NCBI RefSeq assembly: GCF_056712565.1 | Contig: NZ_CM160072.1 | DNA: 64,000 nt | Direction: 5' to 3' (one strand) | Shown here: positions 51,301 to 56,196 of the stretch, piece by piece | Position numbering within the stretch: the first letter of the stretch is position 1 | How the letters are laid out: every line of letters begins with the position of its first letter | Program-made: the position numbers

Positions 51301-54300
51301 CAGTGGGGCACGTTGCTGATGTTTGGTATTGGTATCAGCCTGGGGTCCACGCTGCTTGATACGCAGGCAGCTTCATGGATGGCGAACTATGTGGTGAAAG
51401 GTTTTGGTCTTGATGGCTTGCCATCATTAGCCATCTTCGCGATTCTCGCCGCTTTCTTGATAATTATTCACCTGGGGTTTGCCAGTGCCACTGCGCTAAC
51501 TGCCGCATTGCTGCCCATCCTGATTAGCCTGTTAAGCAGTCTGCCGCCAGAACTCGGCGTTAACCCGGTCGGCATGACCATTCTGCTCGCCTTCAGTGTC
51601 AGTTTTGGCTTCATCCTGCCGATTAACGCGCCACAAAATATGGTGTGTATGGGTACGGATACCTTCACGCCACGCCAGTTTACCCGTGTGGGACTGTACC
51701 TGACGGTAATCGGCTACCTGTTGTTGCTACTGTTTGCCGCCACCTGGTGGAAAATTTTAGGTCTAATGTGAGGAAACCAACGATGTCATTACAAATTGCT
51801 GTTGAAAAAGTGCGTTGGTTAGCTGCCGGGCTGCTGGAACTTAATGGCTGTGATGCCGATATCGCTCAGGATGTGGCGGAACATATGATTGAAGCGGAAC
51901 GTTATGGCTTTGCCAGCCACGGCGTCACGCTGCTACCGAAATATCTGGAAAATATCGCTCGTGGCGATGTAACCGCGAATGCCCGCCCGGAATGCTTAAC
52001 AAGTGAAGGTAATTTACAACGTTTTCATGCCCACAATGGCTTTGGTCAACACGCCGGAAAAGTGGCGGTAAATGCTGCCATCGAACAAGCAAAACACCGC
52101 GGTTTTTGCCTGTTAACGTTGTGCCATGCGCATCATTTAGGGCGTATGGGGCATTACGGGCAAATGGTTGCTGATCAAGGCCTGGCGATGCTGGCCATGA
52201 GTAACGTCACCGGGCGTCCGGCACTGGTCGCCCCGTGGGGCGGTGCGGAACCGCGTATGACCACTAACCCTTTCTGCTTTGCCTGGCCGTTCAGTGATGG
52301 GCGTCCGCCGATTCTGGTTGATTTTGCCACCAGTAGCATGGCGCTAAATAAAGCACGGGTAATGTCGTCCACCGGGAAGCAGGCCGCGCCGGGACAATTG
52401 ATCGATGCACAGGGGAATCCAAGCAATGATCCTGGGGTGTTATTCAGCAATCCTCCAGGGGCGTTACTGCCATTTGGTGAGCATAAAGGATTTGGCCTGG
52501 CACTGATGATTGAAATGATGGCGGGGATCTTATCTGGTGGTGACACGATCGCCGAAGATCATCAGACGGATGGATCTGCGCATAATCATCTTTTTGCGTT
52601 GATTATCGATCCTGATCAATTCACCGATCTGGCAGGGGAGAAAGGGCAGTTCTTTGCGGATTATCTGTTAGCTACGCAGCCTCAACCTGGCGGCAATCCG
52701 GTGATTTACCCCGGTATGCCAGAAGCTGCCAACCGGGAACGCAATGCGAAGATGATTACGATCCCGGTATCATTCTGGTCCTGGATAGTTGAACATTACG
52801 CCCGCAAAGGTATCGATTTGGGGTTACATCCTCAGGAATCAGCATTAGCTGGATGATTCTGGTCGATAAACTTGCGGTTGAATCTGATGTTTGTTGAGTT
52901 TGTCATATAAAGTCTTGCGCGGCAGCTGTAATAGCCGCGCTGTCAAACTGACTTGGCCTTCCGTTTGTCGCAGCATATCTTCGATTAACTTTTTCTCGAA
53001 AGCATCAATGCAGGCGGTAAGGCCACTCTCTTCTTGCTGAGTCATTGGCACTGGCTGGTGGTGGGTCAGTAAACCGAGAACAAAACGCTCTGCATTGTGT
53101 TTAAGTTCACGTACATTGCCAGGCCAACTTTGTGATTGCAACCAGGCCAGTAACATGGGAGAAATATCAGGCAGAGGACGATTATATTTTTGTGCCGCCT
53201 GACTGGCGAACCAGTAAAACAGTTCAGGGATATCTTCTCGTCGCTGGCGTAGAGGTGGAATATTCAAGCTAACCACATTCAGACGATAATAGAGATCGAG
53301 ACGAAACAGATGTTCTTCGCTGCGACGCAGTAAATCTTCCTTGGTCGCTGCAATAACACGGCAATTCACCGGAATTAATTGATTGGCACCTAATCGTTCA
53401 ATGGTTCTTTCCTGCAATACACGTAGCAGTTTTACCTGCATTCCTGATGGCATTCCCTCTATTTCATCGAGAAATAACGTACCACCATTTGCATGTTCAA
53501 TTTTTCCAATACGCTTTTTAACCGCACCGGTAAATGCGCCCGCCTCATGACCAAATATTTCGCTTTCAAACAACGTTTCTGGTAAGCCTGCACAGTTTAA
53601 GGCAACAAACTGCCCCTGACGGCGGGTACTCCAGTGATGCAGCATTCTGGCGACGACTTCTTTACCACAACCTGTTTCACCATAAATAAGGACATCGGCA
53701 CCGGTATCTGCGACATTAAGGATCATTTTACGCAGTTGTTGCATCTGCGGACTACGACCAATCAGCACCGGGCCATTTTCCTGTTGCAGATTCGCCAGTA
53801 ATTGCTGATTTTCTAAAACCAATCGCCGTTTTTCTACCGCTCTGGCAATAATACTCAATAATTTATCTGAGCTACTTGGTTTCTCAATGAAATCGAATGC
53901 ACCATTACGCATGGCATCCACCGCCATTTCCACGTCACCGTGTCCGGTAATTAAAATAACCGGAATTTTGCTATCCATTTCGTTGATGTAACTGAGGAGC
54001 TCTAGTCCTGATATTCCAGGTAACCTGACATCGGTCAGTATAATAATGTTGGCTTGACTTTGAATAAGGGGAATACTGTGTTCTGCATCGCAACAGGAAA
54101 TAACACGATAACCAGCCAGCGTGAGCGTTTGTTCACAGGCAAAACGTACATCGTCACTATCCTCAATATAAACTATAGTAATTTCACTGGATTTATTATT
54201 CATGTTCTTCTCCCCATTCAGGCCAGGTTAATGTCATTACTGCGCCGCCTTCAGGATGATTACTGGCGTGGAGTGCGCCGTTCGAATTTCGGACAATTTC

Positions 54301-56196
54301 GCTGACTATTGCCAGTCCCAACCCCATTCCTCTACGTTTAGTGGTAAAAAATGGTTCAAATATGCGATCGACAACTTCAGGTGCAAAACCGCCACCGCTG
54401 TCTTTAATGGTAATAATAACTTTGTTATTTGCCTGGCGAATGGCGATATCCAGTCGTTTGTAAGAGCTACCTTCCATAGAATCTAAGGCGTTGCTAATTA
54501 AATTACTGAATATCTGTTCAAGACCGAGCTCATCGCAATTGACAAATAACGGCATGGATGGGGCTTTTATTCGTCGCTCAATGTTATTTTTCTCCATGCT
54601 GTGATTAAGTAACGCCACGGCGCTATACATCACTTTGATGACATCGGCAGAACCTTTAGGTACGCGATGGCGCGAGGCAAATGCTTTAAGTTCGGAAATG
54701 AGCTGCGTCATCCGCTCAATCACTGAAATAATGTGTTTCAGATTCTGTTCAACCTGCGGATACATCTCTTTTTTTAGCATAGTACGCGCGTTATCAGTAA
54801 GTGCGTGAATGGCGGCTAACGGTTGATTTTGTTCATGGGCAATTTCGGTTGCCATCTGTCCAAGCGCCGCCAGTTTGCTGGACTCTGCCAGTTCACTACG
54901 CGTAATTTGTAATACTTGTTCAGCCTGACTGCGCTCTTTTATCTCCTGTATTAATTTTTGATTGATCAATTCCAGGGCAGATGTACGCTCTTTAACCTGT
55001 TTTTCTAATGTTTCATTCGCCAGTGTTAATAATTGTTGTGCATGAGATCGCATTCTCCAGTATTTAATAAATAACAAAAACAGCAGGTAAATAATTAGTG
55101 TAATGACTAACGAAATAGCCCATGACCAGTACAGGTTATCTAAGGGGACCATAATTGTCATTTTCCAGTTAAATTCTGGAATGGCTATTTGTTGCGTATA
55201 ATATTGCGGGAATAAACAGAGTTGTTCTTTTTTATCTTTCAGGAAAGTAAAATTGCTCACGGTATAACAGGGATAATAATCCGCCGGTAAAAGATTGTCG
55301 AGACTATATTGACGGGTAGATTGTAGTTTTTGTTTTGCCTGAACAGGTAACGGTTGCAGTGTTCGCATTCGCCATGGCGATTTTGAACTTAAAAATATAA
55401 TCCCATGTTCATCATTCACGATAATATTTTCAGGACCTTCGGCCCATGCTTTTTCAATTTCATTAAGACTTATTTTTACTACTACAACACCGACAATTTT
55501 TCCTTTATCTTTTATACTTGTAGAGAGGAAGAATCCCGGTGTATTTGTAGTGCTACCAATACCGTAAAAGCGTCCATTTAAGCCAGACATGGCGTGTTTA
55601 TAATAGGGGCGATAGCTATAATTTTGCCCTACATAGCTGCCGGGGTCCTGCCAGTTGCTAGAAGCGATGGCCTTACCTTGGGTATCCAGAATAAATATTG
55701 CTGCGGTTTTGAGTTGAGTATTGAAATGTGCAATTCGTTGATTGAGTTCGCTGGACGTCATATCGTCAGGCGTAATTACCGCCTGACGGATGATATGGTC
55801 TGTTGAGAGCATATAGGGTAAAACATAAAATTGCTCGATGGTGGAATATAATGTGGACTTATACATTTCAAGCCGCATTTTATCGGTACCGGACAAGGTA
55901 TTAAAACGCAAGTGCAAAAAAGCGATTGAAACCGCGAGCATGATAAGAAAAAGTGAAATGCTTGTAATGTGAAATCGCCATTTGTTCTTAAATATATAAT
56001 TCCACGATATTTTCATTCATCATCCATTGAATGCATTTATATTTATCATCAGTATATTCCCTGAACAATGTTTGCGAGAACCAAAAGAGTGCCATTGTGT
56101 GAATGTGTAAGCAGAATAACCGTGGCAATGTGTGGTTTATCGCACAGGTATTCCAAATGTGATCATGCTCTTTTTATGTGACAAATCCGCAGATAA

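What the first reader, a model, noticed from the sequence alone, without database searches (positions are those of the whole stretch)
52845..56016. Compositional mosaicism: the sensor kinase / regulator genes are markedly more AT-rich than the adjacent OGDH/SCS genes
By eye the kinase and regulator coding sequences are dominated by A/T-rich codons (for example atgaataataaatccagtgaaattactatagtttatattgaggatagtgac), whereas the E1-E2-E3-SucCD block reads as GC-rich, E. coli-like sequence. This suggests the regulatory pair and the catabolic genes had different evolutionary origins and were assembled into the island, or that the regulatory pair is a more recent acquisition. AT-rich genes are typical H-NS targets, which could add a silencing layer.
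Basis: seen in the sequence. Interest (0 to 1): 0.35.

Follow-up and report, generated by a model that had tools for sequence, protein, structure and literature searches.

The report
AT-rich regulator genes, known metabolic island
The two regulatory genes (kguS/kguR) of a known E. coli alpha-ketoglutarate-utilisation island are clearly more AT-rich than the enzyme genes beside them, but this is an old, conserved property of those genes, which the silencer protein H-NS coats, and not a sign that they arrived separately or recently.

Summary
Window 52845-56016 is kguR plus kguS (c5040/c5041 of UPEC CFT073), at 42.3% GC. The seven adjacent enzyme and transporter genes are at 52.0%. The block falls in the lowest 3% of equal-sized windows in 259 kb of the same genome, and its codon adaptation is lower than that of every flanking gene.

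The "separate or recent origin" reading is mostly wrong. All 13 taxa carrying a KguS orthologue (52-92% identity; Escherichia, Citrobacter, Klebsiella indica, Buttiauxella, Pectobacterium, Brenneria, Entomohabitans, Vibrio) carry the same nine-gene module. Protein distances co-vary across all genes. kguS stays near 40% GC in almost every host, even where the enzyme genes reach GC3 0.72.

About 60% of the kguS deficit comes from the sensor's amino-acid composition. The rest is synonymous. Synonymous sites are saturated between genera, and recent changes are balanced (GC->AT 113, AT->GC 114), so the composition is at equilibrium, not being ameliorated.

Two parts of the reading hold:
- Published CFT073 ChIP-seq shows H-NS/StpA on kguS (0.53) and kguR (0.31), but on only one other island gene, sucD_1, barely above the cut-off.
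- kguSR alleles show a different shallow phylogeny from most enzyme genes, which indicates allelic recombination.

The system is already known. Interest is low to moderate.

The parts
54196..56016 (-). kguS (c5041): DctB-type membrane sensor histidine kinase and the AT-richest gene of the island (GC 0.406)
   Evidence: Pfam hits are dCache_1 (50-228), HisKA and HATPase_c. It has two hydrophobic segments at about 13-41 and 294-322 and an H-box HEQNQP at H394. It is 100% identical to E. coli B2 genomes. Composition.
52845..54203 (-). kguR (c5040): NtrC/DctD-type sigma-54-dependent response regulator (GC 0.444). It overlaps kguS by 8 nt and the convergent Ldh-family gene by 12 nt.
Evidence: Pfam hits are Response_reg, Sigma54_activat, AAA_lid_14 and HTH_8. 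GAFTGA lies at residue 222.
53259..56885 (.). AT-rich tract as defined by composition change-points (about 0.42 GC). It reaches from inside kguR across kguS and the intergenic region into aphA.
   Evidence: Entropy segmentation and the sliding GC profile. The same gradient, with a minimum at the kguS promoter and 5' end and a rise through kguR, is seen in all 12 hosts tabulated.
56017..56292 (.). kguS-aphA intergenic region. It holds the published KguR autoregulatory site TGTGTGGTTTATCGCACA (56129-56146), a sigma-54-like -24 element with an imperfect -12 (about 56081-56094, minus strand), and the right island junction at 56154/56155.
   Evidence: The motif is from PMC8716947 and was located. 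Sequence. Junction against K-12. The site is conserved in Citrobacter R56.
42443..56154 (.). The whole KguS/KguR alpha-ketoglutarate island (13,712 bp) between tyrB and aphA
   Evidence: Homology to K-12 stops at 42442 and resumes at 56155. Annotation. The island is present as a whole in 1043 of 5426 complete E. coli genomes. In the sampled rows it is otherwise absent, with no partial form seen.
42623..50060 (+). Catabolic operon: E1 42623-45367, E2 45400-46554, E3 46566-47984, sucC 48006-49175, sucD 49188-50060. GC is 0.514-0.536. A sigma-54-like promoter TGGTACGGATTGTGCA lies at 42572-42587.
   Evidence: The promoter element is conserved in Citrobacter R56.
50061..50271 (+). sucD-DASS intergenic region. 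It contains a local GC dip, the published KguR site (50136-50153) and the sigma-54 promoter TGGCATAGCTCCTGCA (50216-50231).
   Evidence: The binding site is from PMC8716947. Weak H-NS signal on sucD_1 (0.096) is.
50272..52856 (+). Second target operon: DASS dicarboxylate transporter 50272-51771 (c5038) and Ldh_2-family oxidoreductase 51783-52856 (c5039). GC is 0.513-0.522.

Best explanation
The block is the kguS-kguR operon. This is the DctB/DctD-type, sigma-54-dependent two-component system that senses alpha-ketoglutarate and switches on the neighbouring 2-oxoglutarate dehydrogenase / succinyl-CoA synthetase and transporter operons of the UPEC island c5032-c5041.

Its low GC is an old, intrinsic, equilibrium property of this operon. 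It is not a footprint of separate or recent acquisition. Two components add up.

1. Protein composition. The sensor is rich in amino acids with AT-rich codons (FYMINK 0.32, GARP 0.20) in every orthologue. This gives about 62% of the kguS deficit and about 42% of the kguR deficit.
2. Synonymous sites. In kguSR these sit at an AT-biased substitution equilibrium (GC3 about 0.4-0.5). The force that raises GC3 in the strongly induced enzyme genes and in ordinary host genes acts only weakly here. As a result kguS follows host composition with a slope of only about 0.4.

The consequence is a 2-3 kb AT-rich tract that is deepest at the kguS promoter and 5' end. H-NS/StpA coats this tract in vivo. That coating probably keeps basal kguSR expression low until alpha-ketoglutarate-activated KguR, which binds its own promoter, overrides it.

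Shown here or in the literature: the composition, its conservation, the equilibrium, module linkage, H-NS/StpA occupancy, and KguR autoregulation.

Inferred: that weak selection on synonymous sites causes the low GC3, and that H-NS binding actually represses kguSR.
For: **Identity.**
- The block is 100% identical to E. coli B2 genomes and carries matching annotation.
- The published KguR sites are found at the expected places.
- Domains and motifs fit the family.

**Linkage.**
- Every KguS orthologue found (52-92% identity, 13 taxa plus metagenome contigs) lies in the same module.
- In Citrobacter R56 the island also lies between tyrB and aphA.
- In E. albertii, C. koseri, other Citrobacter and K. 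indica it lies next to aphA.
- Protein distance matrices of all genes correlate at r = 0.87-0.99.

**Conservation of composition.**
- kguS is 8-19 GC points below the enzyme genes in all 16 loci.
- It is 0.37-0.41 GC in 14 of them (0.444 in K. indica, 0.497 in Entomohabitans).
- The codon position 1+2 deficit is -0.10 to -0.14 everywhere.
- The GC3 deficit is -0.11 to -0.28 in Enterobacterales and zero in Vibrio.
- The slope of kguS GC3 on enzyme GC3 is 0.43; for kguR it is 0.75.
- Amino-acid bias is conserved.

**Not a relic.** Fourfold sites are only 0.29-0.38 identical between genera.

**Equilibrium.**
- In the Citrobacter/Buttiauxella quartet, polarised synonymous singletons in kguSR are GC->AT 113 against AT->GC 114. 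The implied equilibrium GC3 of 0.45 equals the current value.
- The enzyme genes show 313 against 178 (p = 1e-9), with an implied equilibrium of 0.49 against a current 0.63. Most of this excess is in the Buttiauxella lineage.
- In the E. coli lineage kguSR gives 26 against 24.

**Weak constraint on synonymous sites.** dS in kguSR is 1.5-3 times that of the other island genes in three close pairs, with dN/dS of 0.03-0.11. CAI is lowest for these two genes.

**H-NS/StpA occupancy.** PMC9765446 Data set S1E.

**Autoregulation by KguR.** PMC8716947.

**Conserved promoter-anchored GC gradient.**
Against: - The three nearest non-Kgu DctB-family sensors (33-39% identity) have GC3 equal to or above their neighbours. 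"Sensor genes are weakly selected" is therefore not a general rule.
- Other presumably weakly expressed regulators next to the islands keep host-like GC3. LacI- and ROK-family genes beside the Buttiauxella island are at about 0.55.
- The per-site GC->AT rate in kguS is 1.6 times that of the enzyme genes (0.316 against 0.194). Its implied equilibrium (0.42) is also lower than theirs (0.49). This hints at an extra local AT push.
- The lowest GC3 in E. coli kguS (0.17-0.23) falls in well-conserved codons 151-210, and GC3 does not track protein conservation.
- No expression data in hns/stpA mutants were found for these genes.
Confidence: 0.55

Rival explanations
1. The AT-richness of kguS, and of its promoter-proximal 2-3 kb, is actively maintained by selection. 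It keeps the operon inside the H-NS/StpA regulon, so that the autoactivating KguS/KguR switch stays off without alpha-ketoglutarate. On this view composition is a conserved regulatory character that travels with the module.
For: - H-NS/StpA occupancy is high on kguS, lower on kguR, and absent from all but one other island gene (sucD_1, barely above cut-off).
- AT-richness and a promoter-anchored GC gradient are conserved in every enterobacterial host despite saturated synonymous sites.
- It is not a general feature of DctB-family sensors.
- The lowest GC3 lies in conserved codons.
- The GC->AT rate is elevated in kguS.
- There is a precedent in the SPI-1 regulator promoters, which resist amelioration under H-NS (PMC7232297).
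Against: - The equilibrium GC3 implied by recent changes in the enzyme genes (0.49) is close to that of kguSR (0.45). No AT-favouring force is strictly needed.
- kguS GC3 does drift upward in high-GC hosts: 0.59 in Entomohabitans and 0.51 in K. indica.
- A test for clustering of A/T runs beyond codon usage was inconclusive.
- There is no functional evidence that H-NS represses kguSR.
Confidence: 0.3
2. The regulatory pair came from a different, AT-rich donor, or arrived later than the enzyme genes, and its low GC is the un-ameliorated signature of that origin.
For: - GC, GC3 and CAI are outliers typical of foreign genes.
- kguSR alleles have a different shallow phylogeny from E2, E3, DASS and Ldh.
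- The nearest non-Kgu relatives of KguS sit next to TRAP transporters, not dehydrogenases. The module must therefore once have been assembled from parts.
Against: - The same nine-gene module occurs in all 13 taxa, down to 52% KguS identity.
- Deep distances are congruent.
- kguS is AT-rich in every host, while the linked enzyme genes match each host.
- Synonymous sites are saturated, so no donor signature could survive.
- Recent substitutions are balanced rather than AT->GC-biased.
- About 60% of the kguS deficit is protein composition.
- The allelic exchange detected was between two equally AT-rich kguS alleles, so it does not explain the composition.
Confidence: 0.05
3. A regional effect of the tyrB-aphA chromosomal site. 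The locus itself is an AT-rich domain, and whatever lies next to aphA becomes AT-rich.
For: - In K-12 the 1106-bp tyrB-aphA spacer is only 32.5% GC.
- The AT-rich tract in the window extends into aphA (GC 0.486; change-point at 56885).
Against: - The same kguS/kguR composition is seen where the island lies elsewhere: next to dps in Buttiauxella, next to hemN in Brenneria, and at other sites in Pectobacterium, Entomohabitans, the ENA contig and Vibrio.
- In Citrobacter, aphA itself is 0.52-0.54 GC while kguS is 0.40.
Confidence: 0.03

Closest known systems
KguS/KguR (c5041/c5040) and the c5032-c5039 island of UPEC CFT073 (Cai et al. 2013, PMC3694859; 2021, PMC8716947)
   Same: It is the same locus.
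- It lies between tyrB and aphA and has the same ten genes.
- The published KguR binding sites sit upstream of c5038 and kguS.
- kguS and kguR are co-transcribed and autoregulated.
- The island is associated with B2/ExPEC strains.
   Different: Nothing differs in the sequence features. The papers do not mention base composition (no occurrence of 'GC content' or 'G+C'). They call the island UPEC-specific. Here it is also found at the same site in E. albertii, Citrobacter and K. indica, and elsewhere in other Enterobacterales and Vibrio.
DctB/DctD C4-dicarboxylate two-component systems (NtrC family). MifS/MifR of Pseudomonas is cited from my own knowledge as an alpha-ketoglutarate-responsive relative.
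   Same: - A double-Cache periplasmic sensor lies between two transmembrane helices.
- HisKA and HATPase domains are present.
- The regulator has REC, a sigma-54 AAA+ domain with GAFTGA, and a Fis-type HTH.
- Sigma-54-type promoters precede the target operons.
- Database names for relatives at 30-39% identity are DctB/AauS.
   Different: - KguS is only 33-39% identical to the nearest such sensors. There is a clear gap below the Kgu clade, from 53% to 39%.
- The ligand is a C5 dicarboxylate.
- The targets are dehydrogenase and synthetase genes plus a DASS transporter, not DctA/TRAP.
- Those relatives show no synonymous AT-richness.
H-NS-bound AT-rich regulatory DNA that resists amelioration, e.g. 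hilA/hilC/hilD of Salmonella SPI-1 (PMC7232297)
   Same: - The regulators of an accessory gene cluster are its most AT-rich part.
- They are H-NS-bound.
- They keep that composition across lineages while other genes approach host values.
   Different: - Here the AT-rich part is mainly coding sequence of a sensor kinase, and much of it is due to amino-acid composition.
- Repression by H-NS has not been shown.
- The pattern is conserved across genera and families, not within one genus.
evgAS-emrKY block of E. coli
   Same: This is another two-component system whose genes are compositional outliers in the same genome (evgS GC 0.409, evgA 0.398, CAI 0.35-0.41).
   Different: It belongs to a different family (an unorthodox kinase with a NarL-type regulator). 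There, the regulated neighbours (emrKY) are AT-rich too, so there is no contrast within the cluster.

Membership tests
KguS/KguR alpha-ketoglutarate island (c5032-c5041) | Inserted between tyrB and aphA of E. coli | tested here: met
   Annotation. Junctions at 42442/42443 and 56154/56155 against K-12.
KguS/KguR alpha-ketoglutarate island (c5032-c5041) | Gene set E1-E2-E3-SucC-SucD, DASS transporter, Ldh-family gene, and a convergent kguR-kguS | tested here: met
KguS/KguR alpha-ketoglutarate island (c5032-c5041) | Published KguR binding sites upstream of c5038 (TGTGCGGAAAACCGCGCACA) and kguS (TGTGTGGTTTATCGCACA) | tested here: met
   Sites at 50136-50155 and 56129-56146.
KguS/KguR alpha-ketoglutarate island (c5032-c5041) | Induction by alpha-ketoglutarate under anaerobiosis and a contribution to urinary-tract colonisation | not testable with these tools
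   Taken from PMC3694859.
DctB/DctD-type (NtrC-family) two-component system | Sensor with a periplasmic Cache domain flanked by two transmembrane segments, plus an H-box and an ATPase domain | tested here: met
   dCache_1 at 50-228, HisKA, HATPase_c. Hydrophobic segments at about 13-41 and 294-322, and H394 in HEQNQP.
DctB/DctD-type (NtrC-family) two-component system | Regulator with a receiver domain, a sigma-54 AAA+ domain carrying GAFTGA, and a Fis-type HTH | tested here: met
   Pfam. GAFTGA at residue 222.
DctB/DctD-type (NtrC-family) two-component system | -24/-12 (GG-N10-GC) promoters at the target operons | tested here: met
   TGGTACGGATTGTGCA at 42572-42587 and TGGCATAGCTCCTGCA at 50216-50231. 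These are sequence matches only. The kguS promoter has a -24 element but an imperfect -12.
DctB/DctD-type (NtrC-family) two-component system | Orthology with characterised DctB (C4-dicarboxylate sensing, control of dctA/TRAP) | tested here: not met
   Identity to DctB-named proteins is only 30-39%. The nearest ones flank DctPQM. Kgu is a separate clade with different targets.
H-NS/StpA-silenced AT-rich DNA | AT content clearly above the genome average | tested here: met
   GC 0.423 against 0.505 +/- 0.034.
H-NS/StpA-silenced AT-rich DNA | H-NS occupancy in vivo | tested here: met
   Published ChIP-seq in CFT073: kguS 0.526, kguR 0.308, signal lost in the hns stpA double mutant. This is literature data from a strain about 99% identical here, not my own experiment.
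H-NS/StpA-silenced AT-rich DNA | Derepression when H-NS/StpA are removed | not tested
   No expression data for c5040/c5041 in hns mutants were found.
Recently transferred, un-ameliorated foreign gene (Lawrence-Ochman model) | Composition differs from the host because of the donor, and is drifting towards host values (AT->GC excess) | tested here: not met
   Recent synonymous changes are balanced at 113:114 and 26:24 in the E. coli lineage. Synonymous sites are saturated between genera.
Recently transferred, un-ameliorated foreign gene (Lawrence-Ochman model) | Distribution and phylogeny independent of the neighbouring genes | tested here: inconclusive
   Distribution is identical to that of the enzyme genes in all 13 taxa, and deep distances are congruent. 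Shallow topology differs, indicating allelic recombination. Whether the enzyme block occurs without kguSR could not be tested, because one search returned only E. coli variants.

The most novel reading that the evidence does not exclude
The synonymous AT-richness of kguS is under selection. This mobile nine-gene metabolic module would then carry its own H-NS landing pad, a promoter-anchored 2-3 kb AT-rich tract inside the sensor gene. The tract is kept AT-rich in every enterobacterial host, against the host's compositional pressure. It keeps the self-activating KguS/KguR switch silent until alpha-ketoglutarate appears. Base composition of a coding region would thus be a conserved, portable regulatory trait rather than a fading mark of foreignness.
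Probability: 0.3. Interest if true: 0.55.

Novelty: already known. Interest (0 to 1): 0.3.

Why it matters
The locus is a characterised UPEC fitness island, and H-NS occupancy of kguS and kguR already sits in a published data set. The finding therefore adds no new system.

What the analysis adds is a caution and a small lead.

The caution: a sharp GC step inside an island need not mark a seam between parts of different origin.
- The step here is conserved across at least 13 taxa and four families.
- About 60% of it is protein composition.
- It is at substitution equilibrium, while the linked enzyme genes track each host. They can even be seen ameliorating in the Buttiauxella lineage.

The lead: the same tract is where H-NS/StpA bind. 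The sensor-regulator operon of this virulence-associated pathway may therefore have a silencing layer that KguR autoactivation must overcome. That would affect when UPEC turns the pathway on in the kidney.

The island's presence at the same tyrB-aphA site in E. albertii and Citrobacter also questions the label "UPEC-specific acquisition". An older element lost from most E. coli lineages is the alternative.

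Tried and rejected
1. **Remnants of the island in K-12.** I searched the K-12 tyrB-aphA spacer with blastn and tblastx. There was no similarity. The spacer is unrelated 32.5%-GC DNA carrying yjbS.
2. **Partial forms in E. coli.** I looked for copies with the TCS only or the enzymes only. In the sampled rows the island is all-or-none (1043 of 5426 genomes).
3. **E1 homologue search.** This was meant to show whether the enzyme block exists without kguSR. The 120 listed hits were all 99-100% E. coli variants, so it was uninformative.
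4. **A/T-run and TpA clustering.** I tested whether kguS has more of these than its codon usage predicts, using 300 synonymous shuffles per gene in 11 taxa. z-scores were mostly +1 to +4 for kguS, but the DASS transporter behaves similarly and E. coli itself is not significant. The result is inconclusive.
5. **Cause of the 3-fold higher dS of kguSR between E. coli and E. albertii.**
   - Within-E. coli differences are not elevated in kguSR (0.4-1.2% against 0.4-1.6% in the other island genes).
   - DASS and Ldh contain 2% patches that suggest recent exchange.
   - Another AT-rich core gene, pdeC, is equally divergent.
   - E. coli and E. albertii alleles are equidistant from all outgroups.
   - I could not separate rate from recombination.
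6. **Correlation of GC with protein conservation along kguS.** It holds for codon positions 1+2 (rho 0.51, p = 0.02) but not for GC3.
7. **Literature.** I found no mention of the island's base composition. I found no hns-mutant expression data for c5040/c5041.
8. **The regional-effect idea.** Rejected, because islands at other chromosomal sites show the same pattern.

Full report
**What the region is.**
- The window is an E. coli phylogroup-B2-type chromosome. Positions 52600-56300 are 100% identical to ATCC 11775, NU14, UM146, APEC O18 and many others.
- Annotation of the matching record and Pfam show that 42623-56016 is the KguS/KguR alpha-ketoglutarate island described in UPEC CFT073 (c5032-c5041; PMC3694859).
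- The gene order is E1, E2, E3, SucC, SucD (one operon); a DASS transporter and an Ldh_2-family oxidoreductase (a second operon); and, convergent with these, kguS-kguR.
- The finding's coordinates are exactly kguR (52845-54203) plus kguS (54196-56016). The quoted sequence is the start of kguR.
- Against K-12, homology stops one base after the tyrB stop codon (42442) and resumes at 56155, so the island is 42443-56154. K-12 has instead an unrelated 32.5%-GC spacer carrying yjbS.
- The island is present as a whole in 1043 of 5426 complete E. coli genomes. In the sampled rows it is otherwise absent, with no partial form seen.

**Checking the observation.** The contrast is real.
- kguS is 40.6% GC (GC3 0.390) and kguR is 44.4% (GC3 0.386). 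The seven structural genes are 51.3-53.6% (GC3 0.47-0.58).
- As blocks the values are 42.3% against 52.0%. Only 3.1% of 4802 equal-sized windows in 259 kb of the same genome are as AT-rich.
- Among 140 ORFs of at least 200 aa, kguS is at the 2nd percentile and kguR at the 4th. The enzyme genes are unremarkable.
- The few more AT-rich genes are T6SS cargo ORFs. The evgAS-emrKY genes lie in the same range (evgA 0.398, evgS 0.409).
- Codon adaptation, measured against highly expressed genes of the same genome, is lower for kguS and kguR than for any of 26 flanking ORFs.
- Change-point analysis places the AT-rich tract at about 53259-56885. It starts within kguR and runs beyond the island edge into aphA. 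The deepest part covers the kguS promoter and 5' half.

**Are the regulatory genes of separate or recent origin?**
- KguS has a narrow set of orthologues, then a gap from 53% to 39% identity.
- Every orthologue whose context could be read lies in the same module: kguS-kguR convergent with Ldh-DASS-sucD-sucC-E3-E2-E1.
- The hosts are E. albertii (92%), three Citrobacter species (77-78%), Buttiauxella, C. koseri, Klebsiella indica, an ENA metagenome contig, Entomohabitans, Pectobacterium, a Logan contig and Brenneria. Two Vibrio also carry all the genes, with the enzyme operon divergent from kguS.
- The module lies between tyrB and aphA in Citrobacter R56. It lies next to aphA in E. albertii, C. 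koseri, other Citrobacter and K. indica. It lies at other sites in the rest.
- Pairwise protein distances of KguS and KguR correlate with those of each enzyme as well as the enzymes do with each other (r = 0.87-0.99).
- The pair has therefore travelled with the enzyme genes since well before these lineages diverged.

**Composition across hosts.**
- kguS lies 8-19 GC points below the enzyme genes in all 16 loci. It is at 0.37-0.41 in 14 of them (0.444 in K. indica, 0.497 in Entomohabitans).
- In Brenneria the enzyme genes have GC3 0.69-0.75 and kguS has 0.43.
- The deficit at codon positions 1+2 is constant (-0.10 to -0.14, Vibrio included). It reflects a conserved FYMINK-rich, GARP-poor sensor protein.
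- In E. coli, positions 1+2 account for 62% of the kguS deficit and 42% of the kguR deficit.
- The third-position deficit exists in all Enterobacterales and vanishes in Vibrio, where the host is equally AT-rich.
- Across hosts, kguS GC3 follows enzyme GC3 with a slope of 0.43, and kguR with 0.75.
- A GC gradient with its minimum at the kguS promoter and first 900 bp, rising through kguR, is seen in every host.

**Relic or equilibrium?**
- Fourfold-degenerate sites are only 0.29-0.38 identical between genera, so no donor signature could persist.
- In a quartet of close relatives (Citrobacter R56, NCU1, Awk4, Buttiauxella), polarised synonymous singletons in kguSR are balanced: GC->AT 113, AT->GC 114. 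The implied equilibrium GC3 of 0.45 equals the present value.
- The enzyme genes in the same quartet show 313 against 178 (p = 1e-9). Most of this is on the Buttiauxella branch, at 176 against 72. The enzyme genes are visibly adjusting to a new host while kguSR is not.
- With a noisier outgroup polarisation, the E. coli lineage gives 26 against 24.
- A recent AT-rich import would show an AT->GC excess. None is seen.
- kguSR also has 1.5-3 times higher dS than the other island genes in three independent close pairs, with low dN/dS of 0.03-0.11. The genes are functional but weakly constrained at synonymous sites.

- H-NS. The CFT073 ChIP-seq of Hustmyer et al. (PMC9765446, Data set S1E) lists the following:
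  - kguS at H-NS occupancy 0.526 and StpA 0.498, comparable with fimB and above papI and cadC.
  - kguR at 0.308 and 0.281.
  - sucD_1 at 0.096, just over the 0.07 cut-off and next to the AT-rich sigma-54 promoter region at 50.1-50.3 kb.
  - No other island gene. The signal disappears in the hns stpA double mutant.
- A distinct history, in a limited sense.
  - NJ bootstraps and quartet site patterns put the E. coli kguR and kguS alleles with Citrobacter R56/Buttiauxella and apart from C. koseri/K. indica (14:1:1 and 30:4:7).
  - E2, E3, DASS and Ldh put the Citrobacter alleles together. sucC sides with kguSR.
  - This indicates allelic recombination within the island family. Both kguS allele classes are equally AT-rich, so it does not explain the composition.

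**Mechanism.**
- KguS/KguR is a DctB/DctD-type system. The sensor has a Cache domain between two membrane helices, with H394. The regulator has a receiver domain, GAFTGA at residue 222 and a Fis-type HTH.
- GG-N10-GC promoters precede E1 (42572-42587) and DASS (50216-50231). The published KguR sites lie at 50136-50155 and 56129-56146.
- KguR activates its own operon (PMC8716947).
- My best reading is that the AT-rich tract results from the sensor's amino-acid make-up plus synonymous sites resting at an AT-biased equilibrium, because GC-raising selection is weak there.
- H-NS/StpA binding follows from that composition. It probably sets a low basal level that KguR autoactivation overrides.

**Main rival.**
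- The rival is that the AT-richness is itself selected to retain H-NS control, as proposed for the SPI-1 regulators (PMC7232297).
- Points in its favour:
  - The three nearest non-Kgu DctB-family sensors show no GC3 deficit.
  - The lowest GC3 falls in conserved codons.
  - kguS has a 1.6-fold higher GC->AT rate.
- Points against it:
  - The equilibrium implied by recent changes in the enzyme genes (0.49) is close to that of kguSR (0.45).
  - kguS does rise in high-GC hosts.
  - An A/T-run clustering test was inconclusive.

**Verdict.** The system is already known. The compositional step is a conserved, equilibrium feature of the regulatory operon and coincides with an H-NS/StpA-bound domain. 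It is not a seam between parts of different age.

Noticed in passing
window 42374-42398 (3' end of tyrB, outside the island): A full match to the published KguR consensus (TGTGTGTCGCCGGGCTTAACGCGCA) lies about 175 bp upstream of the sigma-54-like E1 promoter. K-12 tyrB lacks the right half-site because of a cluster of substitutions in the last 50 nt, which also change TyrB residues (NAQNVH against NTANVQ). Citrobacter R56 lacks a full match too. It could be a B2-specific enhancer or chance; 1.6 matches are expected per window.
   Followed up: partly
window 42300-42442 and 56155-56554: The 150-400 bp next to each island junction are 6-11% diverged between this strain and K-12. Further out, divergence falls to 0.5-3% for roughly the next kilobase on either side. 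This is the pattern of an old presence/absence polymorphism or of replacement by homologous recombination.
   Followed up: partly
locus L029 5143-6248 (K-12 tyrB-aphA spacer): Island-free E. coli carry an unrelated 1.1-kb spacer of only 32.5% GC with the small gene yjbS. It shows no similarity to the island by blastn or tblastx.
   Followed up: partly
window 39614-41166: pnuC and an AAA-family ATPase gene lie between alr and tyrB in this strain and are absent from K-12. This is a second strain-specific insertion next to the island.
   Followed up: no
window about 26600-36900 (between qorA and dnaB): A cluster is present here that is absent from K-12, where qorA abuts dnaB. It comprises a LacI-family regulator, acyl-CoA:acetate/3-ketoacid CoA-transferase, enoyl-CoA hydratase, an MFS transporter and an FAD-binding protein.
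   Followed up: no
window 50400-50999 and 51900-52199 against L016 (E. albertii): Divergence between E. coli and E. albertii is patchy inside DASS and Ldh. Stretches at about 2% sit among 6-11%, while uvrA is 6-10% and kguR-kguS-aphA are 10-18%. This suggests recent exchange of island segments between the two species.
   Followed up: partly
window 52845-52856 and 54196-54203: kguR and the convergent Ldh-family gene overlap by 12 nt at their 3' ends, leaving no room for a terminator. kguS and kguR overlap by 8 nt. The 12-nt overlap is conserved in Citrobacter R56 but not in C. koseri.
   Followed up: no
window 62349-63935 (pdeC) and 61640-62340: pdeC is another AT-rich gene (GC 0.447, CAI 0.40). 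It is weakly H-NS-bound in CFT073 (0.097) and unusually diverged from E. albertii (12-22%). AT-rich core genes here also evolve fast at the DNA level.
   Followed up: partly
loci L003 and L008 (Citrobacter R56 and Buttiauxella WJP83): The islands of these two genera differ by only 1-7% at the protein level (dS 0.3-0.7) yet sit at different chromosomal sites: tyrB-aphA against next to dps. This indicates a fairly recent inter-genus transfer of the whole module, kguSR included.
   Followed up: partly
loci L006, L007, L024 (Vibrio): In Vibrio the enzyme operon is divergent from kguS across an 850-890-bp intergenic region of 31% GC. A TGGCAC-N6-TGC element faces the enzyme operon. The enzyme genes there have lower GC4 (0.20-0.34) than kguSR (0.38-0.40), which is the reverse of the enterobacterial contrast.
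   Followed up: no
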